This document shows, one piece after another, positions 2 through 21,173 of a stretch of 32,000 nt of DNA. The notes under the pieces were generated by a model. That model did not search any database and was not told where the DNA came from. It was given only the letters and a program-made list of their open reading frames with translations. This DNA comes from Bacteroidetes bacterium SW_9_63_38 (GTDB lineage Bacteria; Bacteroidota; Rhodothermia; Rhodothermales; Salinibacteraceae), in NCBI GenBank assembly GCA_003022435.1, contig PXUA01000019.1, forward strand, positions 283,427 to 315,426. The letters run 5' to 3'. Position 1 is the first letter of the stretch. Every line of letters begins with the position of its first letter. The position numbers and the translations under genes are program-made.

Positions 2-2245
2 GCGCTGTGCGACGAGCAGCGGGCCGTGGTGACGGAGCTACTCTCCGGCGAGGAAGCGGCCCCGCTCCTTCGGGCGCTGGATGCGGACGTGGACGACGTG
101 GACGACGTGCTGCGGGCCACGCGGCTCATGAGCACCGCCCCTTCCACGGCCCGCGACCTCATTGCTGGCTACGGGGAGCTCTGGTCGGCGCGTCTTCTGG
201 CGGGCGTTTTGCATGCGCGCGGAGTCTCGGCGGCAGCCTGTAATGCGCGCGACGTGCTGGTCGTGGAGCACGGCAAGCTCGGGCCAGTGGTCAACTGGGA
301 GAAGACGCGTGCTCGCTTTGCCGAGTGGCGGGCCGAAATGGGCGCCGACGTGTACGTCATCACCGGCTTCATCGCCTCCACGCCCGACGGCGTTCCCACG
401 ACCCTCGGACGAAACGGCTCCGACTACTCCGCCGCCATCTTCGCGGCGCTGCTGGACGCTCAGGATCTCAATATCTGGACGGATACGGACGGCGTGATGA
501 GCGCCGATCCCCGCTACGTGCCCGACGCCCAGACGCTCGACGCCCTCACCTACGAGGAGGCCATGGAGCTGGCCTACTTCGGCGCGCGGGTCATTCATCC
601 CCGCACCATGGCTCCGGCCATCGACCACGAGATTCCCATCACGATCCGAAACACCTTTGCCCCCGAGGAACCGGGCACGCAAATCCACCTGGAGAGCAAC
701 GGGGAGCCGTCCGTTGTGAAAGGATTTTCGACGGTCGACAACGTGGCGCTTCTCAACCTGGAGGGCACGGGCATGATCGGAGTCCCGGGCATTGCACGAC
801 GACTCTTCGATGCCCTCGAGGACGAAAACATTTCGGTGATTCTCATCTCGCAGGGGAGCTCGGAGCACTCCATCTGCTTTGCGGTACCGCAGGAGCAGGC
901 CGACGCCGCCCGCGCAGCGACCGAGCAGGCCTTCTACGCCGAGATGGACCGGGGCCAGATCGAACGGGTGGAGGTCGCGTCCGACTGTAGCATACTGGCG
1001 GTGATCGGCGATCGTATGTCCGGCACACCAGGCGTGGCGTCGACGTTCTTCGGGGCCCTCGGCGACGCCGGGGTGAACGTGCGGTCCATCGCACAGGGGT
1101 CCTCGGAGCGCAACATCTCGGCGGTGGTGGACGGCGACGACGCGCAGCGCGCCCTCCGGGCTGTGCATGCCGGCTTCTACCTCTCGAAGCGGACGCTCTC
1201 GATCGGTGTCATCGGCGCCGGCAACGTTGGGGCCGCCCTTCTCGACCAGATTGGGGATCAGGTGGAGCGCCTGCGCGAGGAGCAGGACATCGACCTGCGC
1301 GTTCGAGGGGTCACGACCAGCAGCCGGATGGTTCGCGCCGAGCAGCGCATGGACCTCACGTCCTGGCGCGACCAGTTGGCCGACGGCGAGGAGGCCGATC
1401 TGGAGACTTTTGTGGACCACGTACAGACCGACTACCACCCACACACGGTCCTCGTGGACTGCACTGCGAGCGATCACGTCGCACAGCACTACGAAGAGTG
1501 GCTGGCGGACGGCATCCACGTGGTCACGCCCAACAAGCGGGCCAACACGGCGTCGATGGAGGTCTACGAAGGATTGAAGGCGGCCAGCCGAGGCACGCGG
1601 CCCGACTATTTGTACGAAACGACCGTTGGGGCGGGGTTGCCCATCGTCCAGACCCTGGAGAACCTTACCGAAACCGGAGACCGGGTGCATCACATAGAAG
1701 GCATTCTATCGGGCACGCTGTCGTATCTTTTCAACGCCTTCGACGGGGACCGCCCCTTTTCGGATATTCTGACGCAGGCGAAGGAGGAAGGCTTTACCGA
1801 GCCGGATCCGCGGGACGACCTTTCGGGAATGGATGTGGCCCGAAAAGTGGTAATTCTGGCCCGCGAGATGGGCCTGTCGCTGGAGCTGGACGATGTCGCG
1901 ATTGAAGGCCTCGTGCCCGACTCGCTGAAGGAGGGCACGGTGGAGGAGTTCTTGGAGCAGCTTCCGGAGCACGACGACGCGATGACCGACATTCTCCGGG
2001 ACGCCAAGGCAGAAGGCAAGGTCCTACGGTTTGTGGGGAGCGTAGAGCGAGACGGTACCGCCTCGGTGAAGCTGCGTCGCTACCCGACCGACCACGCCTT
2101 CGCCCGGATCAGCCACACCGACAACATCGTCCGCTTCCAGACGGACCGTTACCAGAAAAACCCGCTTATTGTGCAAGGACCGGGCGCAGGGCCGGAGGTC
2201 ACCGCGGCCGGCGTATTCGCCGATTTGCTCCGTCTCATGACATAG
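2..2245 (+). CDS. thrA: bifunctional aspartokinase / homoserine dehydrogenase, 5' end cut by the window edge
   Basis: The frame is open from base 2 to TAG at 2243-2245. The product has an amino-acid-kinase region ([30 protein letters not shown]), an ACT-like middle region, an NAD-binding [13 protein letters not shown] motif, and a homoserine dehydrogenase C-terminal domain ([32 protein letters not shown]). At about 740 aa visible it is roughly 80 aa short of typical ThrA, so the true start lies upstream of the window. Confidence 0.93.
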
Positions 2246-2341
2246 TGCAGCTTCAACTGGTCCGTTGTGCAATCGAGATACCTCAAGCTGGAGCGTGGAG
2301 CAATAGCAAACTGCTTTCCCCAAAAGATCGTTTGAAGCTGC
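2243..2341 (+). repeat. MITE-like inverted-repeat element, copy A (97-bp core 2245-2341)
   Basis: 2245-2277 is identical to 20222-20254, and 2278-2341 matches 20278-20341 at 63/64 positions. The termini GTGCAGCTTCAA and TTGAAGCTGC are inverted repeats. No ORF. The left end overlaps the thrA TAG stop. Confidence 0.8.
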
Positions 2342-2396
2342 GATTAACCACTCGAACAACGGATCAGAGGAGGCAACGGTCTTTGCGCCCGCCTCC

Positions 2397-3308
2397 ATGG
2401 GCAACGTGGCCGTGGGCTACGACGTGCTGGGAAGCGTTCTCAACTGCATGGGGGACCGGGTCACGGTGCGGCGGCTGGACGATCCGACGGTGCGGATTGG
2501 GCGCATCACGGGCCGCGTGCCGGATCTGCCGACGGCGCCCGCCGACAACACAGCCACGAAGGCGCTGCTCGATTTGCAGGCGGCACACCACCTCGACACC
2601 GGGTTCGAGGTGGATATCGAAAAGGGCATCCCGCTCGGGTCGGGCCTCGGGGGATCGGCGGCCTCGGCGGTCGGGGCGGTCGTAGCGGCGGCGGAGCTTC
2701 TGCCCGGAGAGTGGACGGAGGAGGATCTGCTTCCGCACGCGCTGATCGGAGAGGAGGTGGCCAGCGGGGCGATTCACCCGGACAATGTGGCGCCCTGCCT
2801 GTACGGCGGGCTGGTACTCACGCGCGAGATCGATCCGCCCGACGTGGTCCCGATTCCGGTTCCCGAGAGCATTCAGTGTGTGCTCGTGCGCCCCGATCAG
2901 GTGATCGCTACTCGCGATGCTCGCGCGTGCCTGCCGACCGAGCTTCCGCTTCCCGAATCGGTGCGCCAAACCGCCCACCTGGGCGCGTTCGTGGCGGGAT
3001 GCTACCGCAACGACATCGGGCTGATCGGCCGGTCCCTCCGCGACCTCATCGTGGAGCCGCACCGGGCGGGCCTCGTGCCCGGCCTCGCGGAGGTGCAGTC
3101 GGCGGCGATGGAGGCGGGAGCGCTCGGATGCTCGCTCTCCGGAGCGGGGCCGACCCTGTTTGCCTGGAGCGAAGCCGGAACCACGACCGAGGCGGTCCGC
3201 GAGGCCATGGTGTCGGCGTTCGCGGGGCACGACATTCCGACGGAAGCGTGGGTCTCGCGGATTCCGGAGCAGGGGGCGCGGATCGTGGAGCCTACGCCGG
3301 CGCAGTAA
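2397..3308 (+). CDS. thrB: homoserine kinase (GHMP kinase family)
   Basis: GHMP motif PLGSGLGGSAASAV is present, and the N-terminal GNVAVGYDVLG matches the ThrB consensus. The conserved first strand (VFAPAS) is encoded in-frame upstream of the first ATG, at 2379-2396. The real start is therefore probably non-canonical, near 2376 (see findings). Confidence 0.9.
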   Translation: MGNVAVGYDVLGSVLNCMGDRVTVRRLDDPTVRIGRITGRVPDLPTAPADNTATKALLDLQAAHHLDTGFEVDIEKGIPLGSGLGGSAASAVGAVVAAAELLPGEWTEEDLLPHALIGEEVASGAIHPDNVAPCLYGGLVLTREIDPPDVVPIPVPESIQCVLVRPDQVIATRDARACLPTELPLPESVRQTAHLGAFVAGCYRNDIGLIGRSLRDLIVEPHRAGLVPGLAEVQSAAMEAGALGCSLSGAGPTLFAWSEAGTTTEAVREAMVSAFAGHDIPTEAWVSRIPEQGARIVEPTPAQ

Positions 3309-3363
3309 GTCGGCTTCCGAGGAACGAAACCTGCCGCCGCAGATGAGTATGGGTTGTCTCGCT

Positions 3364-3391
3364 TTACGTTGAACGTTTGAACGTTGTACGT
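3364..3391. repeat. CGTT array with 7-8 nt period (4 units)
   Basis: ttACGTTgaACGTTtgaACGTTgtACGT has CGT at 3367, 3374, 3382 and 3389. It lies between the convergent thrB and xseB genes. Confidence 0.6.
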
Positions 3392-3392
3392 C

Positions 3393-3590
3393 CTAGTCAT
3401 CGCTGATCGAGAGCTCACTCACGCGCTGCTCCGCGTCGTTCAGGCGAGAGAGGCACTCGTTGGCGAGCTCGACCCCTTCCTCATAGGTATCCAGCGCTTC
3501 TCCCAGGGAGGGGGGATCGTCTTCGAGCGATTCAACGATCTCTTCGAGTCGGTTGAGGGCGTCTTCAAAAGAGTGGTTGTCGGTGGCCAT
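3393..3590 (-). CDS. xseB: exodeoxyribonuclease VII small subunit
   Basis: 65-aa product with the typical XseB sequence FEDALNRLEEIVESLEDDPPSLGEALDTYEEGVELANECLSRLNDAEQRV. ATG at 3590. Confidence 0.93.
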   Translation of the reverse strand: MATDNHSFEDALNRLEEIVESLEDDPPSLGEALDTYEEGVELANECLSRLNDAEQRVSELSISDD

Positions 3591-3825
3591 AGGGCGAGTC
3601 GATTCGTTGGGATGTGCGGAATATGAGAGGTAGGGCAGCGGCGGCGGTTTGTCAAGCGTCGCGGGGCGTTTCTGCCGTTTTGCACAGATCCGTCACCTTC
3701 GGTCCCGGACCTGTCCAAATGATCTGAAAATTCGGCGTGGCGGTGAGGGCGGGTGGACGCTTTCAGGGGTGCTCGCTACGTTCAAGTATACATGCTTTCA
3801 TCTTATTGTCAGACTACCGACCCTC

Positions 3826-4599
3826 ATGGATCTCGGATTACAGGATCGCGTTGCCATCGTCACCGGTGCCAGTCAGGGCATTGGCAAGTATATCGCTCAG
3901 GCCCTCGCGCGTGAAGGATGTGACATTGCCATCTGTGCCCGCACCGAGTCGGATCTGGAGGACGCAGCGGCGGAGATTGAAGACGAGGGGACTGAGGTGT
4001 TGGCGCTGCCGATGGATGTGACCGACGACGGCGAGCCGGAGCGGCTGGTGGAGGAAACCGCCGAGAAATTCGGCCGCATCGATACGTACGTCGGCAACGT
4101 GGGCGGCAACCGGCGCGGTGATTTTGAGGAGCTGTCCGACGAGGACTGGGAGGACCTCATCAATCTCAACTTTATGTCGCACGTCCGCGTCAGCCGGGCG
4201 GCCATTCCGCACATGAAGGAGGTGGACGGCGCCTCGATTTGCTACATTTCGTCCATCTTCGGGCGGGAACTGGGCGGTGCGGGCCTGTCGCTCTACAACA
4301 CCACCAAGTCGGCGCTCATCAGCGTGAGCAAGGTCATGGCCCAGGAGCTGGCGCCGGAGATTCGCGTAAATAGCGTCGCACCGGGCTCGATTCGGTTTCC
4401 GGGCGGCAGCTGGGATCAGCGTGTGAAGGAGAAGCCGGACGAGATGGAGGAATTCGTCCGGGAGAACATCGCCATTGAGCGGTTTGGGCGCGCGACGGAG
4501 GTGGCCGACGCCGTGACCTTCCTCTGCTCCGAGCGGGCCAGCCTCATCACCGGTTCGTGCATCAACGTGGACGGGGGCCAGTCGCACTCGCTCATTTAG
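3826..4599 (+). CDS. short-chain dehydrogenase/reductase (classical SDR, FabG-like)
   Basis: TGASQGIG cofactor motif, YNTTK (YxxxK) catalytic motif and NSVAPG. I chose the ATG at 3826 (MDLGLQDRVAIVTGAS) because the 59-codon upstream extension of the ORF track has no SDR-like sequence. Confidence 0.9.
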   Translation: MDLGLQDRVAIVTGASQGIGKYIAQALAREGCDIAICARTESDLEDAAAEIEDEGTEVLALPMDVTDDGEPERLVEETAEKFGRIDTYVGNVGGNRRGDFEELSDEDWEDLINLNFMSHVRVSRAAIPHMKEVDGASICYISSIFGRELGGAGLSLYNTTKSALISVSKVMAQELAPEIRVNSVAPGSIRFPGGSWDQRVKEKPDEMEEFVRENIAIERFGRATEVADAVTFLCSERASLITGSCINVDGGQSHSLI

Positions 4600-4692
4600 G
4601 TGTGTGTGTACGTTGTGGGTTGTGCGTTGTGGGTTGTGCGTTTTTGCGTTGTACGTTGTTACGTTGAGCGTCTGCACGTTGAGCGTTGCGGG
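4600..4692. repeat. degenerate CGTTG heptad/octad tandem array (about 11-13 units)
   Basis: (GT)5 is followed by CGTTGTGGGTTGTG repeated twice perfectly (4611-4638). The array continues as CGTTTTTG CGTTGTA CGTTGTTA CGTTGAG CGTCTGCA CGTTGAG CGTTGCG. CG positions are 4611, 4625, 4639, 4647, 4654, 4662, 4669, 4677 and 4684. Confidence 0.75.
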
Positions 4693-4889
4693 GGTAGGGA
4701 TTTGGTCACTGGTTCGGCGAGGACCGTCATCGGTGCGTGCGAGGGCAAACGCGGAACTGGGATGTTCACAAACGCCCCAACGCACATACACCCATACTCC
4801 TATACCGACATACATTTCACGGCACAGTGGGGAGGAGAGGCCCATGAGCCGCCCCCTTTGTGGAAGAGCCGTACCTGTCCCGGCCGCCC

Positions 4890-7697
4890 CTATCCTTCGC
4901 AGTTCTTGCAGCCCAGAATGTCGCGGGAGAAGGCCTGGGCGGCATTCACGCCGTGCTGGTAGTACAGGCTCTTGATGCCCGTTTTCCAGGCTTCGATGTA
5001 CAGACGGTTGACGTCCTTGGCGGGCGTTGCGTTCGGGTCGATGGCCAGGTTCAGCGACTGCGACTGGTCGATGTGGGTTTGCCGGGCGGCCGCCTGATTG
5101 ATGATGGCCATCTGGCTGATTTCGCTGAACGTCTTGAACACCTCCTTCTCGTGCTCGCTGAGAATGTCGAGGTGTTGCACCGAGCCGTCGCGCAGGGCAA
5201 TTTGCTCCCACACCTCGTCGGTGTTTTTGCTCTTCTCGTCCAGCAGGGCTGTCAGGTACGGATTCTTGTAGGTGACCTTCATCTTGGCCCGGTCCTGCAC
5301 GTGGTAGTTGCTCTTGATGGGCTCGATGGACGGGCTCACCTGCCCCAGGATGAAGCTGCTCGACTTGGTGGGGGCCACCGCCATGGTCGTCGCGTTGCGC
5401 CGTCCGCAGCCCTCCAGGACCGGCGGCTCGCCGAACCGGTCGGCCAGCTCCGCAGAGGCCGCGTACGACCGGTCCTTGATCGTCTTGGCGATGTCCGCGC
5501 CGATCGTCGTGGCCTCCGCCGACTCGAACGGGATCATATTCGACTGCAGGTAGGAGTGCCAGCCCAGGATGCCGATCCCGATCGCTCGGTGCCGCTTCGC
5601 AAAGCGAACGGCCCGGTCCATATGGGCCATGCCCTCGGCGCCCTCAATGAACTCTTGCATCACTGCGTCGAGGAAGTAGGTGAGCGTCTCCACCGCGTTG
5701 GTGTGCTTCCACTCGTCGAAGTGGAGGGCATTCATCGACGACAGGCAGCAGACAAAGCTCTCGTCCGGGCCGCATGGAAGCGCGATTTCGGAGCAGTTGA
5801 ACGTCAATACCCCCTGCGAGACAAACACGCTTTCGTCCGTTTCCGTCGTTGGGCAGTAAACGGGCTCGGTGCCTACATGCTCAATCTCAACAACCTCGTA
5901 GGCTTTCTTCGTATTGTCGCGGTAGTGGCGCCTCTCAAGTTCAATGCCCTTTCGGCTGAGAAAGCCAGTATACTTCTCGATTTCCAGGGCGGCGTTTTTG
6001 TTGCCGACGATGAGCCGGTAGCAGTCCTGGACTCTGTATTCGTCGTTCCTGCCTTTTCCGTTTGGAAGCATTTTCGAACCTCCCTCTTGGAGAAGGCGGA
6101 TCTGAGAACTGAGCCCGAGATTGTTGAAAAGAAGCTGAAGCTCCTGGAGAAAGTCGCGGTCGACATCGGCATAATTGATCTGGATCGGGTTGCCCCGGCT
6201 TTCAGACATGTGGACGCTGCCGTCTGCAACAAGCAGACCGCGCACATACGACCACTGCGTGTCCTCGTCGGATTCCCAGATCCATTCAGGTACGGCGCCT
6301 TTTTCGAAACCGAGCTTTGTGAGAGCGGTGGTGCTTAGACGCTTTTTGGCGTCGTTGGAGTGGCTCGCTTGTACGTCGCGGAACGTCGGGACTTCGCGGC
6401 GACGGGTCGCGGTCGTGGTTCCGTGCTGATTCGAGACTGCGTAGGTGTCGAAGCCATGCGTCTCGTAGACGTGATCGAGGGGGGTCTCCACCTCTTCCAC
6501 AATGTCGAAGTCCGACTCCCACACGTCGATCATCTTCCGATCCTCGTGCTGGGTGCCGTCAGATTGCCATAGGCCGAGCAGAAACGCTTCATCCGGCATG
6601 TGACGGTTCCCGAACAAGCCCTTGTTCTTCTGAATGACGATGCGATCCCCAATCTCGAGGTTTTGGGCGTCCTCTCGGTGATATTCGCCCTGGCCGTCAT
6701 AAACGGGAATTCCATGATAGGCCGTCACTTTTTGCTCCAGTCCGTTGTCGAGTGTGATCCGGTACACATCTGCCTCCTCCTCGCGAAGCTTCATCCGTGA
6801 GGCGCTGATCGCCTTTTCTCCGTCGAAGAGCGTAAGGGCGTCTCCTTCTTCGTGCAGGTCCTCCGCCGTCTTGTACCCACGGTCGGTGACGACACGCTGA
6901 TCGCCGGCAAGACAGAGGTTGCTCGCGTGCACGTCGTAGCCCTGGTCCTTGTAGACCTGCGGCCGCCCGTCCTGCACGTTGCCGCGAAAAAGAATGTAGG
7001 GGATGCCGAGGTTCATGCGCTGCTCGATCACCCGCGCCCAGAGGTCGCGCTTTTCGGTGTCGCCGTCAATCATCGCTTCCATCCAGTCGTCGCCCACCAC
7101 GACCCCATACATCATGGTCTGGATGGCGTCGCCCTCGGTTTGGATGTTGAGCCACTCCTCGATGTCGGGGTGTTCGATGTCGATGTAGCCGGCGAAGTGG
7201 CCGCGGCGCGTCTCGCCCTGGCTCACGACATTGATCACCGTGTCGAACAGCTGGGCGAAGGGATAGGTGCCGTTGGAGGTGCCGTTGTTGGTAATGGGGG
7301 CGCCGCGGGGGCGGATGTCGCCGAAGTAGCCGCTGGTGCCGCCGCCCACCTTCGTCATCATGCCCACTTCCGCGTGGGTGTCGAGGATGGAGGTCATCGT
7401 ATCCTCAAAATAGGAGCCGAAGCAGGAGATCGGCAGGCCGCGGTCGAGGCCGAAGTTGGCCCACACGGGACTGGCGAGGCTGTAGTAGCCCCGGCTCATG
7501 TACTCGTAGAAGCGGTCGGCAAAGCCGTCGATCTCGAGGATCGACTCGGCGTGCTCGGCAATCTCGCGCACGCGCTCCGTCGGACCGGTGTCGTCGAGCA
7601 GGTAGCCGCGGCGGAGAAACGTTCGGGCATCGTCATTGAGCCAGGCGAAGTCGGTGGAGGAGTCGGTGTGAGGGGCGGAAAGGGTGTCCGGAGACAT
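4890..7697 (-). CDS. nrdA: ribonucleotide-diphosphate reductase alpha subunit, intein-containing (935-aa precursor, about 562-aa spliced extein, no ATP-cone)
   Basis: The extein junction restores the class I active-site motif ASNL|CSEIALP (SNLCxEI). The C-terminal part matches RNR large subunits, with a terminal CKNCEG Cys pair. An R2 gene lies immediately upstream on the same strand. Confidence 0.95.
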   Translation of the reverse strand: MSPDTLSAPHTDSSTDFAWLNDDARTFLRRGYLLDDTGPTERVREIAEHAESILEIDGFADRFYEYMSRGYYSLASPVWANFGLDRGLPISCFGSYFEDTMTSILDTHAEVGMMTKVGGGTSGYFGDIRPRGAPITNNGTSNGTYPFAQLFDTVINVVSQGETRRGHFAGYIDIEHPDIEEWLNIQTEGDAIQTMMYGVVVGDDWMEAMIDGDTEKRDLWARVIEQRMNLGIPYILFRGNVQDGRPQVYKDQGYDVHASNLCLAGDQRVVTDRGYKTAEDLHEEGDALTLFDGEKAISASRMKLREEEADVYRITLDNGLEQKVTAYHGIPVYDGQGEYHREDAQNLEIGDRIVIQKNKGLFGNRHMPDEAFLLGLWQSDGTQHEDRKMIDVWESDFDIVEEVETPLDHVYETHGFDTYAVSNQHGTTTATRRREVPTFRDVQASHSNDAKKRLSTTALTKLGFEKGAVPEWIWESDEDTQWSYVRGLLVADGSVHMSESRGNPIQINYADVDRDFLQELQLLFNNLGLSSQIRLLQEGGSKMLPNGKGRNDEYRVQDCYRLIVGNKNAALEIEKYTGFLSRKGIELERRHYRDNTKKAYEVVEIEHVGTEPVYCPTTETDESVFVSQGVLTFNCSEIALPCGPDESFVCCLSSMNALHFDEWKHTNAVETLTYFLDAVMQEFIEGAEGMAHMDRAVRFAKRHRAIGIGILGWHSYLQSNMIPFESAEATTIGADIAKTIKDRSYAASAELADRFGEPPVLEGCGRRNATTMAVAPTKSSSFILGQVSPSIEPIKSNYHVQDRAKMKVTYKNPYLTALLDEKSKNTDEVWEQIALRDGSVQHLDILSEHEKEVFKTFSEISQMAIINQAAARQTHIDQSQSLNLAIDPNATPAKDVNRLYIEAWKTGIKSLYYQHGVNAAQAFSRDILGCKNCEG
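5796..6914 (-). mobile_element. intein (373 aa) with LAGLIDADG homing-endonuclease domain, inserted at the RNR catalytic Cys
   Basis: It starts at CLAGDQRVV (Cys262; codon 6914-6912 is aca, reverse complement tgt). It contains a block-B TxxH (VTAYHG) and two dodecapeptide motifs, FLLGLWQSDG and YVRGLLVADG. It ends at VLTFN, followed by the +1 Cys (CSEIALP). G+C is visibly lower than in the flanking extein DNA. Confidence 0.9.
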
Positions 7698-7761
7698 AGT
7701 AGGTGTATGGGACCAGCAGAGAGAAGGAGAAGGAAGAGAGAATCCGGCGTGGGGGAGGAGA

Positions 7762-8733
7762 CTAGAAGAGATCGTCGCTGCTTACGCTCTGGGTCATCTT
7801 CGAGTAGCTAGTGCTCCGCTTCGAGAAGAAATCGTTGCCCTTCGTCAGCAGGATTTCTTCGTAGAACCAGCGGGTCTCGTCGCGCCGCTCCGGGTCGACC
7901 TCAAAGATCGGGGACACGTCCACATTGCGGAGCGATTCGTTAAACTTGTCGCGCAGGAAGGCATCGACGACCGGGCGCGGGAGAAAGTCCAGGTCGCCGT
8001 CCGCAAAAATCCAGTCGAGCACATTCTGCTCGGCCCGATACGCCCGGCGGCAGGCCGCCTGGACCTCCTGTTCAAAGTCGTCGTCGAACCACGCGGGGTG
8101 CTCCTCGCGGATCACGTCGATCAGCTCCACCCCGAAGAGGCCGTGGATCTGCTCCTCCTTGGAGGTGGCCTCGACGGCGTTGGCGACGCCTTTGAATTTC
8201 TTCTCGTATTTGTCGAACGAGAGCATGATGAGGAACTGGCTGAACAGGCTCACATGCTCGATGAAAATCGAGAACAGCAGGATCGAGAATGCGAAGTCGC
8301 GGTCGGCGCCCTCCTCGGGACCGAGGTAGTCATTCAGGTATTCGATGCGATCGGCAATCGCGGGAATTTGTTCGACGCGTTCAAACTCGTCGTTGAGGCC
8401 CAGCAGGTCGAGGAGATGGGAGTAGGCGTCCATGTGGCGCACCTCCGACTCGGCGAAGGTCATGCCCACAGCCCCGATCTCGGGCTTCGGCATGCGGTGG
8501 TAGAGGTCCGCCCAGAACGTTTTGACGGACACCTCGATCTGGGCGATGGCGAGCATCGTCTTGGTGATGACGCTGCGCTCCATGTCGGTGCAGTTGACGT
8601 GGAAGTCCTGCACGTCGCCCTCGAAGTTGAACTCGTCGTGGACCCAGTAGGAGTGCCGGATGGCGTCCTTGAAGTCCAGCAGGTGCGGGTACTCGTACGG
8701 CTTCAGGTTGATGCGCTCGTCGAAAATGCTCAT
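7762..8733 (-). CDS. nrdB: ribonucleotide reductase beta (R2) subunit
   Basis: Ferritin-like di-metal protein with an ExxH motif and Tyr four residues after the His (ESEVRHMDAYSH). A second EExxH motif is EEQIHG, and the acidic C-terminal tail SSDDLF is typical of R2 binding to R1. The start is ATG at 8733 (MSIFDERINLKPYEYP). The 67-codon upstream extension in the ORF track overlaps the riboswitch expression platform. Confidence 0.93.
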   Translation of the reverse strand: MSIFDERINLKPYEYPHLLDFKDAIRHSYWVHDEFNFEGDVQDFHVNCTDMERSVITKTMLAIAQIEVSVKTFWADLYHRMPKPEIGAVGMTFAESEVRHMDAYSHLLDLLGLNDEFERVEQIPAIADRIEYLNDYLGPEEGADRDFAFSILLFSIFIEHVSLFSQFLIMLSFDKYEKKFKGVANAVEATSKEEQIHGLFGVELIDVIREEHPAWFDDDFEQEVQAACRRAYRAEQNVLDWIFADGDLDFLPRPVVDAFLRDKFNESLRNVDVSPIFEVDPERRDETRWFYEEILLTKGNDFFSKRSTSYSKMTQSVSSDDLF

Positions 8734-8905
8734 GGAAGGAGAGGCTGGGGAAGGCAGATATCGAAGAACCAGTCGGGGGGCATCAGACGACGGAGGGCGG
8801 GGCACGCGAGGCCAAGTGAAGGCCGCTGGGAGAATACCAGCAGGAATAATCCGGTCGGCCACGACGGGCATCGGGACGAAAACGATGGGACATACGGTGC
8901 TCCGG

Positions 8906-8950
8906 AAATAGAAAAGACCTTCGGATGCAATCACGCATCACGAAGGCGGG
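8906..8950 (-). terminator. intrinsic terminator (probable riboswitch expression platform)
   Basis: The - strand RNA reads GCCTTCGTGATGC-gtgatt-GCATCCGAAGG followed by tCTTTTCTATTT. It sits between the B12 aptamer and the nrdB start. Confidence 0.6.
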
Positions 8951-9004
8951 GGAGCACGCGGGACGACGTGAGAAGACCGCTACGACCGTACGAAGGGGCC
9001 GAAG

Positions 9005-9195
9005 GGGTACGCGGTCACCCGACACGATTTCACGTTGCGGACCGCAAACCTCATGACGCGTGAGGTGTCCCCACCGAGGGATCGGAAGGGGACAGGGTCG
9101 CTCTCCGAGCAGGCATTCGGACTGTTACCGTTGCGCGACAGCACCGGAATTCCACCGGACTTTCCCCGAGACGCCGCCCCGATGAGAATCGGGAC
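9005..9195 (-). promoter_or_regulatory. cobalamin (B12) riboswitch aptamer upstream of nrdB-nrdA
   Basis: The - strand reads GGGGAAAGTCCGGTGGAATTCCGGTGCTGTCGCGCAACGGTAACAGT. This matches the conserved core GGGAA..GGTG.AA.TCC..GCTG.C.CGCAACGGTAA. A downstream B12-box-like GTCGGGTGACCGCG maps to + strand 9010-9023. Boundaries are approximate. Confidence 0.8.
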
Positions 9196-9250
9196 GACCG
9201 CCGCGCCACGACAGCGCGGCCCCAGAGAGATCGTTTTATATGTGAGGAAT

Positions 9251-9279
9251 ATGGTAAGCGGTACTCAGGGCAGTGTCAA
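9251..9279 (-). promoter_or_regulatory. candidate sigma70-like promoter for the nrd leader
   Basis: On the - strand, TTGACA (9279-9274) is separated by 17 nt from TACCAT (9256-9251), about 55 nt upstream of the aptamer. The promoter consensus for this lineage is not known to me, so confidence is low. Confidence 0.3.
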
Positions 9280-9402
9280 GGGCAATCGCGTCGGCAGGGG
9301 GAAACGAAGCAGATGGAAGCCCTGACAGATCTGGAGGACACGGAGCTGCAACAGCGCGCTCGAATCGGGAAAACGGGCCCGCCAATACGTACAGAAACGG
9401 GA

Positions 9403-10479
9403 CTACTCGAAGCGCGTGAATCGGACGCGGAGGCGGCGCTTCTGCGACGACGACTTGCGCCACTGGACAAGAATAGGACTCTGGTAGCGGCCCTGCACGA
9501 TGGTGCCCTCGACGTTGGCCTCGTCTTCGGTGACCAGAAGAGAGACCGACCGCTTCATGCGAAGGAAGCGCTCGGCGGGAACCGCCAGACACTTGTCGAT
9601 AATTCGCTCGACGAGCGACTCGCTGAGGCCGAGGGTGTCGACTACCTTGTTGACGAGACGGACGAGGTCGTACTTGGCGTAATTTTTTGCCTTGTCGGGG
9701 ATTGCACCGGGGTCGGAGATCATGTTGCGGCCCTTCCGCGCCATGAAGCGCAGCGGGTCGCGCAACACCTCGGCGAGGTCGTACTTCATAAGCAGGGTTT
9801 CGTACTCGTTGACCGTGAGGCCCGCGTGGTGCTCGTCGGGGGGCAGCTCGATGGTGACGCGGCCCGTGGTGATGCCCCGATCGGCCAACATCTCGTGCAG
9901 TTGGTCGAAGATCCCGAGGCGGGGATCGCGCAGGCTCACCGAGTCAATGCGGTGGTTGGATACCGGGACGACCATTTCTGTTTCCTCCACCGCCCGTTCG
10001 TCGTCGAAGCCGATTATGGTCGTTCGCCGCTCGCGCCGATCCTGGTTGTCCTTATTGATCCCATCGAGATCGACGAAGAAGACCGGCCGGGACGGATCGC
10101 TCGGGTAGGTGACGCAGTTTTCGAGGCCCGACCCGATGAAGGTGAGGTGCGAGTCCGCGTTGCGCGGCTCCGTCTGCCGCTGCTCCGGGCTTAGCTCCCT
10201 GCGCAGGTGCAGCTGATCGTGTTGGTAGCTGGCCCCGAACGGAAACAGCTCCCGAAACGGCGCCAGAAACTCTTGCACTTGATCGGGGTGGCGGTCGAGG
10301 CGATTGCAGATTGTTTCTTCGAGAAAGCCCGCCGTCGTGTGATGCGAGCAGTACAGCGCCCTGGCGTGCGCCTCAAGAAATCCATCAGCTTCCGCCTCGA
10401 CGTGCTCGTTCACGTCGATGACATCAACGCGCCGCTCGGGTTGAAAGTGGACCGTAAGTTGGCTCGGGTCGGAAGCCAT
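9403..10479 (-). CDS. YjbQ/UPF0047-like protein with an internally duplicated domain
   Basis: The N-terminal half has the UPF0047 signature CSHHTTAGFLEE, followed by NADSHLTFIG. The C-terminal half repeats it in degenerate form (DEHHAGLTVNEYE, then GRYQSPILVQW). I preferred the ATG at 10479 over the GTG at 10536. Confidence 0.75.
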   Translation of the reverse strand: MASDPSQLTVHFQPERRVDVIDVNEHVEAEADGFLEAHARALYCSHHTTAGFLEETICNRLDRHPDQVQEFLAPFRELFPFGASYQHDQLHLRRELSPEQRQTEPRNADSHLTFIGSGLENCVTYPSDPSRPVFFVDLDGINKDNQDRRERRTTIIGFDDERAVEETEMVVPVSNHRIDSVSLRDPRLGIFDQLHEMLADRGITTGRVTIELPPDEHHAGLTVNEYETLLMKYDLAEVLRDPLRFMARKGRNMISDPGAIPDKAKNYAKYDLVRLVNKVVDTLGLSESLVERIIDKCLAVPAERFLRMKRSVSLLVTEDEANVEGTIVQGRYQSPILVQWRKSSSQKRRLRVRFTRFE

Positions 10480-10731
10480 AGGAACAGAAAACTGTGACAA
10501 GAAGTCGGCCCATTGGGAGAGCACCGACGACGCCACGATTCAGAACAGAATCGTAGCAGAATGAGACAGGAGAAGACACAAGTAGCTTGTCCAAAACCCG
10601 TCCGGTGTACAAGTGGGCTGTAGGTCAGTTCCTGTTTGGAAGCCCTTCCAAATTGAAGGGTTTGCACTGAAAATGCCAGTGCAGAATGTAATTTCACCGT
10701 GCAGTTCCCTGAAGAGGGAGGAGAGCCGTAC

Positions 10732-11955
10732 TCAATCGGCGTCGGGGACTACCTCGGTGACGCAGTGGCCGTCGTGAAAGCGGAGGCGGAGGCGCTCGCC
10801 CGACGCGAGGGCGTCGACCGATTCGACGGGGTTGCCGTCGTGGGTCGGGTATGCGTAGCCGCGGCGCAGGGGCTGCTCGGGATCGGCAGCCTGGAGGCGA
10901 TCCGCCAACCGTTCGAGGTGCGACCGTGCCGAGTCGGTGAGACGGTTGCCGGTGCGGGTGAGACGGTCGACCATCGCATCGAGGTGTTGCCGGTGGTGCT
11001 CCAGGCGGCGGATCGGGGTGTGAAACGCGCGGGAGGACACGAGCGCGTCCACGCGCTGCCGGGCCGTGTCGATGCGGCCGGAGACGTGCTCCCGAAGGCG
11101 GTCGTGCAACTGGCGGATGTGGGCGGCGACATCGCGTCGATCCGGCACCGCGACCTCGGCGGCCATCGACGGGGTGGCCGCCCGCTCGTCGGCCACAAAG
11201 TCCGCAATTGTCACGTCGGACTCGTGCCCCACAGCGCTCACGACTGGGATGGTCGATCCGGCGACGGCGCGGGCTACAACCTCTTCGTTGAAGGCCCAGA
11301 GATCCTCGGTGGAGCCGCCTCCGCGACCGACGATCATGAGATCCGGGTGTTGGTCGGAGGTGTCGTCGAGGTCGTTGAAGGCCGCGACGGCGTCGGCGAG
11401 GGCCTGCGGCGCATCGAGTCCCTGCACCGGAACGGGACACAGTACCACCTCGGCGGGTGGAAAGCGACGCTTCAACACCGACAAAATGTCCTGCAGGGCG
11501 GCGCCCTCCCCGGACGTCACGATGCCGATGGTCTCGGGAAACGGGGGCAGCGGCTGCTTCCGGTCGGCATCGAACAGACCCTCCGCCTGCAGCTTCTGCT
11601 TGAGTTCCTCGTAGGCCTGCTGCTGAGCCCCCTTGCCGGCCTGCCGCATGGCCTGAGCCATAATTTGAAGGTCGCCCCGCCGCTCGTACACCGACGCGTG
11701 CCCGTTCACGCGCACCTGCATGCCCTCCTCCGGCTCGAAGTACACGTACTGCGTGAGGTGCTTCCACATCACGCACCGGATCTGCGCGTCGTCGTCCTTC
11801 AGGGTAAAGTAGCAGTGTCCGGACGCGGCCCGAGTAAAGTCCGAGAGCTCTCCCTCCACCCATACGTCGTCGTAGGCCTCCTCGACGAGTGCGCTGAGGC
11901 CGCGGGTGAGTTCGGTGACGCTCAGAACGTCGGAATCGGAGGCAGAAGACGGCAT
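10732..11955 (-). CDS. xseA: exodeoxyribonuclease VII large subunit
   Basis: An N-terminal OB fold (LSVTELTRGLSALVEEAYDDVWVEGELSDF, SGHCYFTLKD), the core motif GIVTSGEGAALQDIL, then RGGGSTEDLWAFNEE, PVVSAVGHESDVTIADFVAD, and a C-terminal coiled-coil region. ATG at 11955. Confidence 0.93.
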   Translation of the reverse strand: MPSSASDSDVLSVTELTRGLSALVEEAYDDVWVEGELSDFTRAASGHCYFTLKDDDAQIRCVMWKHLTQYVYFEPEEGMQVRVNGHASVYERRGDLQIMAQAMRQAGKGAQQQAYEELKQKLQAEGLFDADRKQPLPPFPETIGIVTSGEGAALQDILSVLKRRFPPAEVVLCPVPVQGLDAPQALADAVAAFNDLDDTSDQHPDLMIVGRGGGSTEDLWAFNEEVVARAVAGSTIPVVSAVGHESDVTIADFVADERAATPSMAAEVAVPDRRDVAAHIRQLHDRLREHVSGRIDTARQRVDALVSSRAFHTPIRRLEHHRQHLDAMVDRLTRTGNRLTDSARSHLERLADRLQAADPEQPLRRGYAYPTHDGNPVESVDALASGERLRLRFHDGHCVTEVVPDAD

Positions 11956-13614: not shown

Positions 13615-13773
13615 GAGGTTGTCGAAAGTGCGGGGCGAACCGGCACACCGCTGGGTCCGCTTCGTACAACGGATTAGTTGCTTTTCCCTGACTCAACCTG
13701 CAGGATCCCTACTGGTCCGCATGCAGGTTGGTAATCCCTCTCTCACTCGGTGGAAACCCATTCACGTATCAGT

Positions 13774-14283: not shown

Positions 14284-14390
14284 CCATCCGAGTGTGAGAG
14301 CATAGGGAAAGGAGAGCGCGGGAGGAGAGGAGCGTGCAGATCCCGTTCTCGACCCTCTCGCTGATGCGTGAATGGGTTGCCACCGATCCT

Positions 14391-19151: not shown

Positions 19152-19991
19152 CTATCGGGCTTCCACGTCGGAGTTGAGGGTATCGGCCGGGATGCGTTGG
19201 CCGTCGCGGCTGAAGGGGGCTTCCGTGGCGATGGCTTCCTGCACGCCGTGCCCGCTCGGGATCCAGCGGATGAGTTCCAGCCGTCCGTCGAGGTGCTCCA
19301 CGAGCGCCGTGCAGCTTTCGACCCAGTCGCCGGTATTGACGTAGTGAGTGCCCTCGAAGGTCCGGAGGCGCGGGTGGTGAACGTGGCCGCAGATGACGCC
19401 GTCGTACTCTTCCTCGGCGGCTTCCAGGGCTGCCGTCTCCTCAAAGTCCTCGATGTAGCTGAGCGCCTGTTGGGTCGAGTGTTTCAGGTAGCTGGAGAGC
19501 GACCAGTACGGGAGATCGAATTGCCGACGGATGTGGTTGAAGAGGCGGTCGATCTTCAGAACGCCGACGTAGGCCCAGCCGCCCAGAAATTCGAGCCACT
19601 TCGCGTGCCGGACGACGCCCTCAAACTCGTCGCCGTGGACAGTGATAAATCGGCGTCCGTCGGCGGTGGTATGAACGGCCTTCTCCTGGATGGTGATGCC
19701 GCCGAGTTGCAGGCCGGGATAGTCGCGGGCGACCTCGTCGTGGTTGCCGGGCACGTACGTGACCGTCGTGCTTTTGGCCTTTTCGAGGAGGGCCTGGATG
19801 ACGTCGTTGTGGGAGGACGGCCAGTACCAGGAGCGCTGCAGCGCCCAGCCGTCGAAGATGTCGCCGACAAGGTAGTAGCGGTCGGCCTCGTGGTGGCGAA
19901 GAAAGTCGAGGAGAAACTTTGCCTTCGCCTGAGGGGTCCCTAAATGGATATCCGAGATCCAGATTGTTCGGTAGTGGGTGGTCGGCTCCAT
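19152..19991 (-). CDS. LpxH-family metallophosphoesterase, PlcP-like (this family is often auto-annotated as UDP-2,3-diacylglucosamine diphosphatase)
   Basis: Calcineurin-like phosphoesterase motifs: ISDIHLG, VGDIFDGW, PGNHDE, VHGDEFE and CGHVHHP, plus the family-specific WALQRSWYWPSSHND and NTGDWVESCTALVEH. ATG at 19991 (MEPTTHYRTIWISD). Confidence 0.85.
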   Translation of the reverse strand: MEPTTHYRTIWISDIHLGTPQAKAKFLLDFLRHHEADRYYLVGDIFDGWALQRSWYWPSSHNDVIQALLEKAKSTTVTYVPGNHDEVARDYPGLQLGGITIQEKAVHTTADGRRFITVHGDEFEGVVRHAKWLEFLGGWAYVGVLKIDRLFNHIRRQFDLPYWSLSSYLKHSTQQALSYIEDFEETAALEAAEEEYDGVICGHVHHPRLRTFEGTHYVNTGDWVESCTALVEHLDGRLELIRWIPSGHGVQEAIATEAPFSRDGQRIPADTLNSDVEAR

Positions 19992-20218: not shown

Positions 20219-20346
20219 CTAGTGCAGCTTCAACTGGTCCGTTGTGCAATCGAGCTTTGGACGGACCTCGTCCGTCCATACCTCAAGCTGGAGCGTGGAG
20301 CAATAGCAAACTGCTCTCCCCAAAAGATCGTTTGAAGCTGCACTAG
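20219..20346 (+). repeat. MITE-like inverted-repeat element, copy B (with nested hairpin module)
   Basis: Perfect 15-bp terminal inverted repeats: CTAGTGCAGCTTCAA (20219-20233) and TTGAAGCTGCACTAG (20332-20346). Relative to copy A it has 23 extra nt (20255-20277), which form TGGACGGAC-ctc-GTCCGTCCA (20258-20278). The right end overlaps the TAG stop (20343-20345, - strand) of the upstream metallophosphoesterase gene. Confidence 0.8.
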
Positions 20347-21173
20347 GCGGGGGCTACGTCGGGAGACGGAACGGAGGAGGCGTCCGGCTGGGTGCCGTCG
20401 CCGGTTGATTGATGTGCGCGCGGGGTAGGCTGGAGGTGGGGGGCAGGCGTTCCGCGTCGAAGCGTGAGACGCCCGTCCGGATGTTCGACGAGGGCTGTGC
20501 AGTTTTCCACCCAGTCGCCTGTGTTGGCGTAGGTGACGTTCCGGATGGGGCGGAGCTCCGGCACGTGAATGTGCCCGCAGACGATGCCGTCCACCTGTTC
20601 GCGGTGGGCCCGGTCGACGACCGCCTGCTCGAAGTCGGCGATGTACTGAACGGCGCGCTTCGTGGTTGTTTTGGCCGCGGCGGCGAGTGACCAGTGGGGC
20701 TTGTCCAGCCAGCGCCGGACGCGGTTGAGGGGACGGTTCAGGGCCAGGAGGCTGCGGTAGGCCCATCCCCCGACCTTGGACAGCCAGCGGGCATTGCGGA
20801 CGACGCCGTCGAACGCGTCGCCGTGCAGCACAAGGAGGCGACGTCCATCGGTGGTGGTGTGGACGGCCTGCTCCTGGATGGTGATGTCCCCGAGCTCCAG
20901 GCCGGGAAACTGGCGGGCAGCTTCGTCGTGGTTCCCGGGAATATAGGTGATCTCGGCGTCCTGCGCCCGGTCGAGCAAGGCCTGCAGCACCTCGTTGTGC
21001 GAGGAGGGCCAGTACCAGGAGCGCTGCAGGGCCCACCCGTCGACGATGTCGCCGACGAGGTAGTAGTGATCGGCCTCGTGGCGGTCGAGAAAGTGCAGAA
21101 GCCCCTCCACCTTCGCGGCGCGGGTGCCGAGGTGAAGGTCGGAGATCCAGATCGTCCGGTATTGGTCGGGCAC
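20343..21173 (-). CDS. LpxH-family metallophosphoesterase, PlcP-like, tandem paralogue
   Basis: Same motif set as 19152-19991 (ISDLHLG, VGDIVDGW, PGNHDE, LHGDAFD, CGHIHVP, NTGDWVENCTALVEH). By eye the two are roughly 60% identical. This copy has a Pro/Thr/Ser-rich C-terminal tail. Confidence 0.85.
   Translation of the reverse strand: MPDQYRTIWISDLHLGTRAAKVEGLLHFLDRHEADHYYLVGDIVDGWALQRSWYWPSSHNEVLQALLDRAQDAEITYIPGNHDEAARQFPGLELGDITIQEQAVHTTTDGRRLLVLHGDAFDGVVRNARWLSKVGGWAYRSLLALNRPLNRVRRWLDKPHWSLAAAAKTTTKRAVQYIADFEQAVVDRAHREQVDGIVCGHIHVPELRPIRNVTYANTGDWVENCTALVEHPDGRLTLRRGTPAPHLQPTPRAHQSTGDGTQPDASSVPSPDVAPA

What the first reader, a model, noticed from the sequence alone, without database searches (positions are those of the whole stretch)
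2243..2341. Unrecognised ~100-bp inverted-repeat element present twice in the window (copy A, between thrA and thrB)
2245-2277 is identical to 20222-20254 (33/33), and 2278-2341 matches 20278-20341 at 63/64 positions. The flanking DNA is unrelated: thrA/thrB at one site, two metallophosphoesterase genes at the other. The ends are inverted repeats (GTGCAGCTTCAA and TTGAAGCTGC). Inside is a GAGCA-N9-TGCTC hairpin. The 5' CAGCTT can pair either with an internal AAGCTG (2285-2290) or with the 3'-terminal AAGCTG, which allows two mutually exclusive folds. The single substitution between copies (C in copy B, T in copy A, at 2316) falls in the closing pair of that hairpin and would keep a G-U wobble pair in RNA. 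The size, terminal inverted repeats and length variants resemble Correia/ERIC-type MITEs, but I do not recognise the sequence as a described family. The two copies sit in opposite orientation relative to local transcription, which favours a DNA-level mobile element over an orientation-dependent RNA.
Basis: seen in the sequence. Interest (0 to 1): 0.65.

Follow-up and report, generated by a model that had tools for sequence, protein, structure and literature searches.

The report
New small transposon family in Salinibacteraceae
The repeated ~100-base sequence is a real but ordinary small "hitch-hiker" transposon (a MITE) of salt-loving Salinibacteraceae bacteria; it seems undescribed, and in this window the copy behind thrA lies next to a 70-base deletion that removed the start codon of thrB.

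Summary

- **Structure.** The element proper is TGCAGC...GCTGCA, with 11-bp perfect terminal inverted repeats and a 4-bp direct target-site duplication (NTAN, mostly CTAG).
- **Length forms.** The canonical form is 120 nt (copy B). Copy A is a 97-nt form lacking a 23-nt palindrome. The same deletion with intact ends occurs at other loci, so the short form also spreads. One copy is 152 nt.
- **Copies.** I found 16 insertion sites at DNA level, all with different flanks. They come from Salinibacter, Salinivenus and related assemblies. Seven more are visible only as element-derived tails in predicted proteins. Sites include operon-internal positions, gene 3' ends, one coding sequence and one transposase gene.
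- **Empty site.** Four relatives have an unrelated ~60-bp thrA-thrB spacer and a GTG thrB start.
- **Deletion at copy A.** A contig identical to the window downstream keeps the full right end, the ATAG duplication, the spacer and GTG. The window has lost these 70 nt.
- **Not RNA, not coding.** There is no Rfam hit, no significant covariation and no codon-position bias.
- **Open points.** The autonomous transposase was not found. The central palindrome is as invariant as the inverted repeats, and this is unexplained.

The parts
2246..2341 (+). Copy A: short-form element (96 of 97 nt; TGCAGCTTCAAC...GTTTGAAGCTGC). It lacks the central palindrome and the last base (A) of the right inverted repeat.
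   Evidence: The same short form with intact ends is at L027 11054-11158, L028 10047-10151 and L028 11930-12034.
2242..2245 (+). Left target-site duplication ATAG of copy A. Its TAG (2243-2245) is the thrA stop codon.
   Evidence: The matching right-hand ATAG is preserved in the same-strain contig L028 (12030-12033). Relatives have GTAG or GTAA at the empty site.
2340..2345 (+). Deletion junction lying between 2341 and 2342. The window reads GCG ATT where relatives and L028 read GTG ATT, the thrB start. Seventy nt are missing: the terminal A of the inverted repeat, the ATAG duplication, the 63-nt spacer and the GT of the start codon.
2246..2256 (+). Left terminal inverted repeat of copy A (TGCAGCTTCAA). 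Its partner at 2332-2341 is truncated by 1 nt.
20223..20342 (+). Copy B: canonical 120-nt long-form element.
   Evidence: It is 97% identical to L025, L026 and L029.
20219..20222 (+). Left 4-bp target-site duplication CTAG of copy B.
20343..20346 (+). Right 4-bp target-site duplication CTAG of copy B. Positions 20343-20345 (CTA) are the TAG stop codon of the upstream metallophosphoesterase gene on the minus strand.
20223..20233 (+). Left terminal inverted repeat of copy B (TGCAGCTTCAA).
   Evidence: Only 1 of 22 inverted-repeat columns varies across 11 copies.
20332..20342 (+). Right terminal inverted repeat of copy B (TTGAAGCTGCA).
20258..20278 (.). Central palindrome TGGACGGAC-CTC-GTCCGTCCA. 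The 9-bp stem is invariant and the loop varies. It is absent from the short form; the 23 nt missing in copy A are 20255-20277.
   Evidence: One of 18 stem columns varies against 43 of 81 other interior columns, Fisher p=1.5e-4.
20302..20318 (.). Weakly conserved second hairpin (loop AAC). It is 79% paired across the family, with 2 compensatory pairs.
26..2245 (+). thrA (aspartokinase/homoserine dehydrogenase), cut at its 5' end by the window start. The element abuts its stop codon.
2343..3308 (+). thrB (homoserine kinase) reading frame without its native GTG. The first canonical in-frame start is ATG 2397, which is Met20 of relatives. ATT 2343 is a conceivable rare start.
20343..21173 (-). Upstream metallophosphoesterase paralogue, whose stop codon lies in the right duplication of copy B.
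19152..19985 (-). Downstream metallophosphoesterase paralogue.

Best explanation
The sequence is a non-autonomous DNA transposon (MITE) family of Salinibacteraceae.

**Shown:**
- Each copy is TGCAGCTTCAAC...GTTTGAAGCTGCA. It has 11-bp perfect terminal inverted repeats and about 25 nearly invariant subterminal bases at each end.
- It has no coding capacity.
- It is flanked by a 4-bp direct duplication of an NTAN target, mostly CTAG.

**Inferred:**
- A DDE transposase supplied in trans binds the two ends and makes 4-bp staggered cuts at the target. The target and duplication resemble those of the IS5 group, but the cognate element was not found.
- CTAG is about 12-fold depleted in this GC-rich genome and survives largely at TAG stop codons. 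Copies therefore often land exactly on a stop codon, and the duplication keeps that stop intact (thrA, a metallophosphoesterase gene, menA, ppk).
- A 23-nt internal deletion produced a 97-nt subfamily that still transposes.

**At thrA-thrB:** the short form inserted at ATAG, on the thrA stop codon. In the window's haplotype a later 70-nt deletion, starting 1 nt inside the right end, removed the duplication, the native spacer and the GT of the thrB GTG start.

**When transcribed:** the element would fold into a very stable stem-loop on either strand. Any effect on host expression is inferred and untested.
For: **Copies at unrelated loci.** DNA copies come from four sources:
- the window;
- species-representative genomes: L007, L008, L013, L014;
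- metagenomes: L020/L022 and L023;
- contigs reached through proteins that carry element-derived tails: L025-L031.

The contexts are all different: menA|menC, ppk 3' end, a histidine kinase 3' end, inside an aldehyde dehydrogenase coding sequence, inside an IS5/IS1182-like transposase gene, and between convergent genes.

**Target-site duplication.** Flank pairs are:
- CTAG/CTAG in five copies;
- TTAG/TTAG (L014);
- CTAA/CTAA (L029);
- CTAT/CTAT (L031);
- ATAG (window left) with ATAG (L028 right).

The non-palindromic matched pairs show a 4-bp direct duplication and exclude a TA-only model.

**Empty site.** L015-L018 have an unrelated 57-60-bp thrA-thrB spacer and GTG ATT.

**Ends.** Inverted-repeat columns are invariant in 21 of 22 cases.

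**Recent spread.** Long copies from the same sample are 97% identical. Short copies share identical deletion breakpoints and are 97-99% identical.

**Not coding.** Variable columns by codon position are 16/16/14.

**Not a known RNA.** No Rfam family matches.

**Target rarity.** CTAG occurs 9 times against 109 expected.

**IS5 precedent.** IS5 makes 4-bp 5'-YTAR-3' duplications (PMC5009759).
Against: - No autonomous element with the same termini was found. The only transposase gene nearby (P0127, L025) is a victim of an insertion, and its upstream 6 kb has no matching end.
- Observed targets include ATAG, CTAT and ATAA, which lie outside strict YTAR. The termini are TG...CA, which from my own knowledge is not typical of the IS5 group, so the transposase family is uncertain.
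- Three copies have mismatched flanks (L007 CTAG/CTGA, L023 CTAG/CTAA, L028a CTAT/CTAC). L028b has TTAG/ATAG, which needs recombination between copies or an assembly chimera.
- Copy number per genome looks low (no more than about 10 seen), and could only be sampled, not counted.
- Simple selfish spread does not explain the invariance of the central palindrome, because the short form moves without it.
Confidence: 0.88

Rival explanations
1. The element is a MITE, but part of it (the invariant central palindrome, or the whole stable stem-loop) has been co-opted by the host or selected at element level. Possible roles are an orientation-independent binding site for a dimeric protein, or an mRNA 3'-end stabiliser or attenuator. 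This adds to the best explanation rather than replacing it.
For: - The palindrome stem varies in 1 of 18 columns while its loop and the rest of the interior vary freely (43 of 81 columns), p=1.5e-4.
- The half-site GTCCGT recurs in the left subterminal region.
- Both strands fold far better than shuffles: z -6.1 and -5.9, about -57 kcal/mol.
- Several copies sit directly after stop codons or inside operons.
Against: - The short form lacks the palindrome and still spreads.
- No T-run follows the stems, and the scans found no terminator or promoter consensus within either copy; the single terminator-like hit lies inside thrA, upstream of copy A.
- Insertions inside coding sequences and inside a transposase gene look selfish.
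- The stems are invariant, so they give no covariation evidence.
Confidence: 0.15
2. The element is a structured non-coding RNA or cis-regulatory RNA, riboswitch-like with alternative folds, that happens to be duplicated.
For: - Predicted folds are strong on both strands.
- Two compensatory pairs occur in one hairpin, and on the minus strand the intermediates are G-U pairs.
Against: - No Rfam match.
- The covariation score does not stand out: 31 of 500 shuffles reach it, and slid controls are similar.
- The AAGCTG needed for the alternative fold is not conserved.
- Both orientations relative to transcription occur, and some copies lie inside coding sequences.
- The copies carry target-site duplications.
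Confidence: 0.03
3. The element is a REP/REPIN-type or IS200/IS605-type palindromic element mobilised by a Y1 (HUH) transposase such as a RAYT.
For: In L007 the element lies 29 nt upstream of an ORF with a weak Y1_Tnp match (25.5 bits). The element also contains a strong hairpin.
Against: - Y1-mobilised elements make no target-site duplication and have no terminal inverted repeats (my own knowledge of the IS200/IS605 and REP/RAYT systems). Here a 4-bp duplication and 11-bp inverted repeats are present.
- Only one of 16 loci has such a neighbour.
- The hairpin is dispensable for spread, as the short form shows.
Confidence: 0.03
4. The two window copies result from local duplication or gene conversion and not from a mobile family.
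For: None beyond the two copies lying 18 kb apart.
Against: Copies occur at 14 other DNA-level sites with different flanks, some in Salinibacter and Salinivenus assemblies. Relatives have an empty site.
Confidence: 0.01

Closest known systems
Correia repeat-enclosed elements (CREE/NEMIS) of Neisseria
   Same: Both are MITEs of about 100-150 bp with terminal inverted repeats. Both have a full-length form and an internally deleted form that both spread. Both insert in intergenic and operon-internal positions, form strong stem-loops when transcribed, and lack a known cognate transposase. These Correia properties are from my own knowledge.
   Different: From my own knowledge, Correia elements duplicate TA and have 26-bp inverted repeats. 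This family duplicates 4 bp (NTAN, mostly CTAG) and has 11-bp perfect inverted repeats. I see no sequence similarity. The host is Salinibacteraceae, not Neisseria, and the copy number appears far lower.
IS5-group insertion sequences (IS5 family) and MITEs derived from them
   Same: Both make a 4-bp direct duplication at a TA-centred target. IS5 uses 5'-YTAR-3' (PMC5009759). Here CTAG, TTAG and CTAA make up most sites.
   Different: There is no transposase gene. Some targets (ATAG, CTAT, ATAA) fall outside YTAR. The termini are TG...CA, not the GG/GA ends that I recall for the IS5 group. No IS with matching ends was found, and the IS5/IS1182-like gene in L025 is an insertion victim.
IS630/Tc1-mariner-derived bacterial MITEs (e.g. 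Nezha of cyanobacteria)
   Same: Both are small elements with inverted repeats and a preference for CTAG-like, TA-centred targets.
   Different: From my own knowledge, those elements duplicate only TA. Here the bases on both sides of TA are duplicated too (TTAG/TTAG, CTAA/CTAA, CTAT/CTAT, ATAG/ATAG).
ERIC / REP-REPIN elements of proteobacteria
   Same: Both are short, structured, dispersed intergenic repeats.
   Different: From my own knowledge, REP/REPIN elements are mobilised by Y1 transposases and leave no duplication, and ERIC elements are enterobacterial imperfect palindromes. Neither shares the 11-bp inverted repeat plus 4-bp duplication seen here.

Membership tests
Bacterial MITE (non-autonomous DDE transposon) | Small size (<~300 bp) and no coding capacity | tested here: met
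   Copies are 97, 120 or 152 nt. Variable columns by codon position are 16/16/14 on either strand. ORFs are open on both strands only because of the symmetry of the inverted repeats.
Bacterial MITE (non-autonomous DDE transposon) | Terminal inverted repeats | tested here: met
   TGCAGCTTCAA / TTGAAGCTGCA is an 11-bp perfect repeat, and 21 of 22 columns are invariant in 11 copies.
Bacterial MITE (non-autonomous DDE transposon) | Direct target-site duplication of fixed length | tested here: met
   The duplication is 4 bp. Eight copies have matched pairs, three of them non-palindromic (TTAG, CTAA, CTAT). ATAG/ATAG is reconstructed from the window plus L028. Three copies have one mismatch.
Bacterial MITE (non-autonomous DDE transposon) | Multiple copies at non-orthologous loci | tested here: met
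   There are 16 DNA-level insertion sites and 7 more seen only in proteins (P0121, P0124, P0126, P0128, P0130, P0131, P0134). All have different flanks.
Bacterial MITE (non-autonomous DDE transposon) | Empty site in relatives | tested here: met
   The thrA-thrB junction of L015-L018 lacks the element. No relative's DNA was available to test copy B.
Bacterial MITE (non-autonomous DDE transposon) | Cognate autonomous IS with the same termini | tested here: inconclusive
   No lone inverted-repeat match was found in the held Salinibacteraceae loci; the only single matches lie in unrelated chance loci or at ends of copies cut by a contig end. The six-frame protein search found no intact transposase sharing element sequence.
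Correia element (Neisseria) | TA target-site duplication | tested here: not met
   The duplication is 4 bp.
Correia element (Neisseria) | 26-bp Correia inverted-repeat sequence; Neisseria host | tested here: not met
   The inverted repeat is 11 bp. All true copies are in Salinibacteraceae assemblies. The Correia consensus is recalled from memory and was not aligned.
IS5-group-derived element | 4-bp duplication at 5'-YTAR-3' | tested here: inconclusive
   CTAG, TTAG and CTAA fit. ATAG, CTAT and ATAA do not. The reference for IS5 is PMC5009759.
IS5-group-derived element | Termini matching an IS5-family IS | not testable with these tools
   No ISfinder-type library was available. The IS5/IS1182-like element in L025 shows no matching end.
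IS630/Tc1-mariner-type MITE | TA-only duplication | tested here: not met
   The bases flanking TA are duplicated as well.
REP/REPIN or IS200/IS605 PATE (Y1 transposase) | No duplication, no inverted repeats, association with a RAYT or TnpA(Y1) gene | tested here: not met
   A duplication and inverted repeats are present. Only L007 has a weak Y1_Tnp neighbour.
Curated structured RNA family (Rfam) | Match to a covariance model, or significant covariation | tested here: not met
   No hit at the gathering threshold, and the best E-value under the lenient threshold is 2.7. Covariation does not exceed controls.

The most novel reading that the evidence does not exclude
The invariant central palindrome (TGGACGGAC-N3-GTCCGTCCA), and the GTCCGT half-site repeated near the left end, may be a functional module carried by the MITE. 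It could be a binding site for a host or transposase-related protein, or an orientation-independent RNA or DNA hairpin that affects expression of neighbouring genes. In that case the family would distribute a regulatory signal around Salinibacteraceae genomes, and recombination or deletion at copies would remodel operons, as at thrA-thrB.
Probability: 0.12. Interest if true: 0.5.

Novelty: new member of a known kind. Interest (0 to 1): 0.3.

Why it matters
- **A new family in this lineage.** I found no description of a MITE in Salinibacteraceae or Rhodothermales in the paper library. The consensus and the 4-bp NTAN target rule allow annotation of these repeats in hypersaline genomes and MAGs, where they break assemblies and create spurious ORF extensions.
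- **Target scarcity.** The family shows how a rare target (CTAG is 12-fold depleted) channels insertions onto stop codons.
- **A local consequence.** The thrB gene of this window has lost its native start codon and leader through a deletion beside the element. Anyone annotating or modelling threonine biosynthesis in this organism should check it.

Tried and rejected
- **Inverted-repeat pattern on viral contigs.** Scanning for the two ends separated by a gap gave only chance matches.
- **Other collections.** Left-end and right-end patterns on viral contigs, and blastn against plasmids, found nothing.
- **Chance hits in the capped scans.** Five of 9 genome-scan hits and 3 of 6 metagenome-scan hits were unrelated sequences, discarded after reading them.
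- **TA-only duplication (IS630-like).** This was my first model. It was rejected once the non-palindromic 4-bp pairs appeared.
- **A 37-codon ORF from GTG in the left repeat to TGA in the right repeat.** Rejected: the opposite strand is equally open and there is no codon-position bias.
- **P0127 transposase as the parent element.** Rejected: its gene is interrupted by the element, and no matching end lies upstream.
- **Simple inversion between the two inverted short copies in L028.** This would explain the der-thrB adjacency, but the predicted inner flank (the reverse complement of the thrA end) is not there.
- **Look-ups that failed.** The window's 303-aa thrB and P0134 are not on record. I therefore could not see upstream of thrA, and no relative's DNA was available to test for an empty site at copy B.
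- **Literature.** No relevant paper was found for Salinibacter MITEs or for the repeat sequence itself.
Full report
**1. The observation**

The two sites are as described. Window 2243-2277 is identical to 20220-20254 (35/35), and 2278-2341 matches 20278-20341 at 63 of 64 positions. Copy B has 23 extra bases (20255-20277) between these two blocks. The 12-mer GTGCAGCTTCAA occurs only at the three intact ends, against 0.07 matches expected by chance.

The flanking genes are confirmed:
- thrA has aspartokinase, ACT and homoserine dehydrogenase domains.
- thrB is a GHMP-kinase homoserine kinase.
- Two tandem metallophosphoesterase paralogues lie on the minus strand at copy B.

No Rfam family matches either copy. 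The only Rfam hit in the window is an AdoCbl-II riboswitch elsewhere, and the best lenient E-value at copy B is 2.7.

**2. More copies**

- **Species-representative genomes.** One scan with a degenerate end pattern gave four true homologues, all in Salinivenus or Salinibacter MAGs (L007, L008, L013, L014). The other five hits were chance matches.
- **JGI metagenomes.** One scan gave two more sites, L020=L022 and L023.
- **Protein database.** Gene callers often run ORFs into such repeats. I therefore aligned the concatenated six-frame translations of five copies and searched the protein database with that profile.
  - Fourteen proteins carried element-derived segments.
  - Fetching their contigs gave L025-L031, with eight further copies.
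  - Seven other proteins show insertions whose DNA I could not fetch (P0121, P0124, P0126, P0128, P0130, P0131, P0134).
- **Host.** Three of the proteins (P0125, P0132, P0134) are named as coming from one NCBI MAG, 'Bacteroidetes bacterium SW_9_63_38'.
- **Same strain.** Contig L028, from the sample that also yielded L025-L027 and L029, is 100% identical to window 2342-10803 over 8,462 nt. That sample therefore holds the window's strain.
- **Other collections.** Nothing was found in the plasmid or viral collections. No paper in the library describes a Salinibacter MITE or contains the repeat sequence in a relevant context.

**3. Anatomy**

- **Length.** All long copies align without gaps. The element proper is 120 nt, from TGCAGCTTCAAC to GTTTGAAGCTGCA.
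- **Ends.** The terminal 11 bp are perfect inverted repeats, and about 25 bases at each end are nearly invariant.
- **Centre.** In the middle lies TGGACGGAC-N3-GTCCGTCCA. Its 9-bp stem is invariant, with one exception in 11 copies, while its loop varies.
- **Conservation.** Stem columns vary in 1 of 18 cases and inverted-repeat columns in 1 of 22. Other interior columns vary in 43 of 81 (Fisher p=1.5e-4).
- **Second hairpin.** A hairpin with loop AAC is 79% paired and has two compensatory pairs.
GAGCA-N9-TGCTC is only 67% paired. The internal AAGCTG needed for the proposed alternative fold is not conserved.
- **Covariation.** Overall covariation does not exceed the controls.
- **Folding.** Both strands fold far better than shuffled sequence, with z about -6 and about -57 kcal/mol.
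- **Coding potential.** A 37-codon ORF runs from GTG in one repeat to TGA in the other, but the same holds on the opposite strand. Variable columns show no codon-position bias (16/16/14), so the element is not coding.
- **Signals.** The scans found no promoter or terminator consensus within either copy; the one terminator-like hit lies inside thrA on the minus strand.

**4. Target-site duplication**

The 4-mers flanking TGCAGC...GCTGCA are:

| Copy | Left / right flank |
|---|---|
| Copy B, L013, L020, L026, L027 | CTAG / CTAG |
| L014 | TTAG / TTAG |
| L029 | CTAA / CTAA |
| L031 | CTAT / CTAT |
| L023 | CTAG / CTAA |
| L007 | CTAG / CTGA |
| L028a | CTAT / CTAC |
| L030 (degenerate copy) | CTGG / CCAG |
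| L025 (one side visible) | ATAA |

The non-palindromic matched pairs show a 4-bp direct duplication of an NTAN target, with a strong preference for CTAG. A TA-only duplication, as in IS630/Tc1, would need four separate coincident mutations at the ends of the repeats, so I rejected that model.

A 4-bp duplication at 5'-YTAR-3' is the known behaviour of IS5 (PMC5009759). Some targets here lie outside YTAR, and the termini are TG...CA. The transposase family therefore stays open.

CTAG is about 12-fold depleted in the window, with 9 found against 109 expected and two of the nine flanking copy B. This fits the low copy number. It also fits the habit of landing on stop codons: thrA TAG (copy A), a metallophosphoesterase TAG (copy B), menA TAG (L023) and ppk TAA (L014). 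In each case the duplication keeps the stop codon.

Other insertions lie:
- in a histidine kinase 3' end (L027);
- at an in-frame GAT-CTA-G inside an aldehyde dehydrogenase gene (P0124);
- inside an IS5/IS1182-like transposase gene (L025).

Both orientations relative to transcription occur. Copy A and L023 are both operon-internal but lie in opposite orientations.

**5. The short form**

Copy A lacks exactly the 23 nt holding most of the palindrome. The same breakpoints (…TCGAG|ATACC…), with intact ends and duplications, are found at L027 and at two sites in L028. They also appear in proteins P0132-P0134. The short form is therefore a spreading subfamily, 97-99% identical among copies, and not a one-off decay product. 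It follows that the palindrome is not needed for mobility, and its invariance in long copies is unexplained. L014 is a 152-nt variant with extra sequence inside the palindrome.

**6. The thrA-thrB site**

Four relatives (ThrB 80-91% identical) have an unrelated 57-60-bp spacer after the thrA stop codon, and a thrB that starts GTG ATT. That is the empty site.

In the same-strain contig L028 the short element is followed by ATAG, then a spacer homologous to that of the relatives, then GTG ATT AAC. The window's left flank is ACATAG. The original event was therefore thrA...ATAG[element]ATAG-spacer-GTG thrB.

The window itself reads ...TTGAAGCTGC|GATTAAC. Seventy nt (L028 12030-12099) are missing:
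- the last A of the inverted repeat;
- the ATAG duplication;
- the spacer;
- the GT of the start codon.

The window now has GCG at 2340-2342. No ATG, GTG or TTG lies in frame between the stop at 2304 and ATG 2397. That ATG is Met20 of the relatives and lies beyond the conserved VFAPAS strand. The junction has no shared sequence on its two sides, so it is unlikely to be a graph-assembly artefact. I could not check reads.

In L028 the left flank of the same element is the end of der (engA) followed by TTAG, not thrA and ATAG. That points to recombination between two short copies, or to an assembly chimera. A simple inversion between the two inverted copies in L028 does not fit the flanks.

**7. 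Interpretation**

Five lines of evidence identify a MITE:
- inverted repeats;
- a fixed-length duplication;
- many unrelated sites across lineages;
- an empty site;
- no coding or RNA signal.

It works like a Correia element: long and short forms both spread, it sits inside operons, it folds strongly, and it has no known transposase. It is not a member of that family, because the duplication and the inverted repeats differ. Its target behaviour is closest to the IS5 group.

The autonomous partner was not found. The only transposase gene near a copy is interrupted by it, and that gene has no matching end upstream. A REP/RAYT origin is unlikely: duplications are present, and only one locus has a weak Y1_Tnp neighbour.

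**8. Verdict**

This is a real feature and a new member of a well-known kind. It is of modest interest as a MITE. Three points add some interest:
- the loss of the thrB start beside the element;
- the signs of recombination between copies;
- the unexplained invariance of the central palindrome.

Noticed in passing
window 2340-2399: thrB has lost its native GTG start (now GCG) and its 5' spacer through a 70-nt deletion beside the element. The same-strain contig L028 and four relatives keep them. The only canonical in-frame start left is ATG 2397, which is Met20 of relatives.
   Followed up: yes
L028 10047-12100: In a contig 100% identical to the window downstream of 2342, thrB is preceded by der (engA), not thrA. 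The short element there has mismatched flanks (TTAG/ATAG), and a second inverted short copy lies 1.8 kb upstream. This is either recombination between copies or an assembly chimera.
   Followed up: partly
window 9112-9166 (-): An AdoCbl-II (B12) riboswitch (44.5 bits) lies upstream of a ribonucleotide reductase small-subunit gene (7762-8934, -) and a large-subunit gene (4890-7697, -). The large-subunit gene contains a LAGLIDADG intein.
   Followed up: partly
window 13747-13772 and 14361-14386: A 26-nt inverted repeat (92% complementary, 588 nt apart) brackets a low-molecular-weight phosphotyrosine phosphatase/ArsC-like gene (13750-14283, +).
   Followed up: partly
window 19152-21173 (-): Two tandem metallophosphoesterase paralogues lie 1188 nt apart and are 76-79% identical at DNA level. 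Copy B sits directly after the stop codon of the upstream one.
   Followed up: partly
L025 5965-5990 and 6001-6964: An IS5/IS1182-like (DUF772) transposase gene is interrupted by the element at ATAA, and the contig ends inside the element. Further upstream, a 16-nt palindrome GGCAAACTAGTTTGCC containing an in-frame TAG also breaks its N-terminal region.
   Followed up: partly
L007 1042-1521: An ORF with a weak Y1_Tnp (IS200-like/RAYT-like) match starts 29 nt from the element. This is the only such case among the loci.
   Followed up: partly
window, whole: CTAG is about 12-fold under-represented (9 found, 109 expected from base composition). TTAA, TTAG and CTAA are also depleted. Several of the remaining CTAGs coincide with ORF stop codons.
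   Followed up: partly
L014 1611-1770: A 152-nt variant of the element has about 32 extra nt inside the central palindrome region. It abuts the TAA stop codon of ppk.
   Followed up: no
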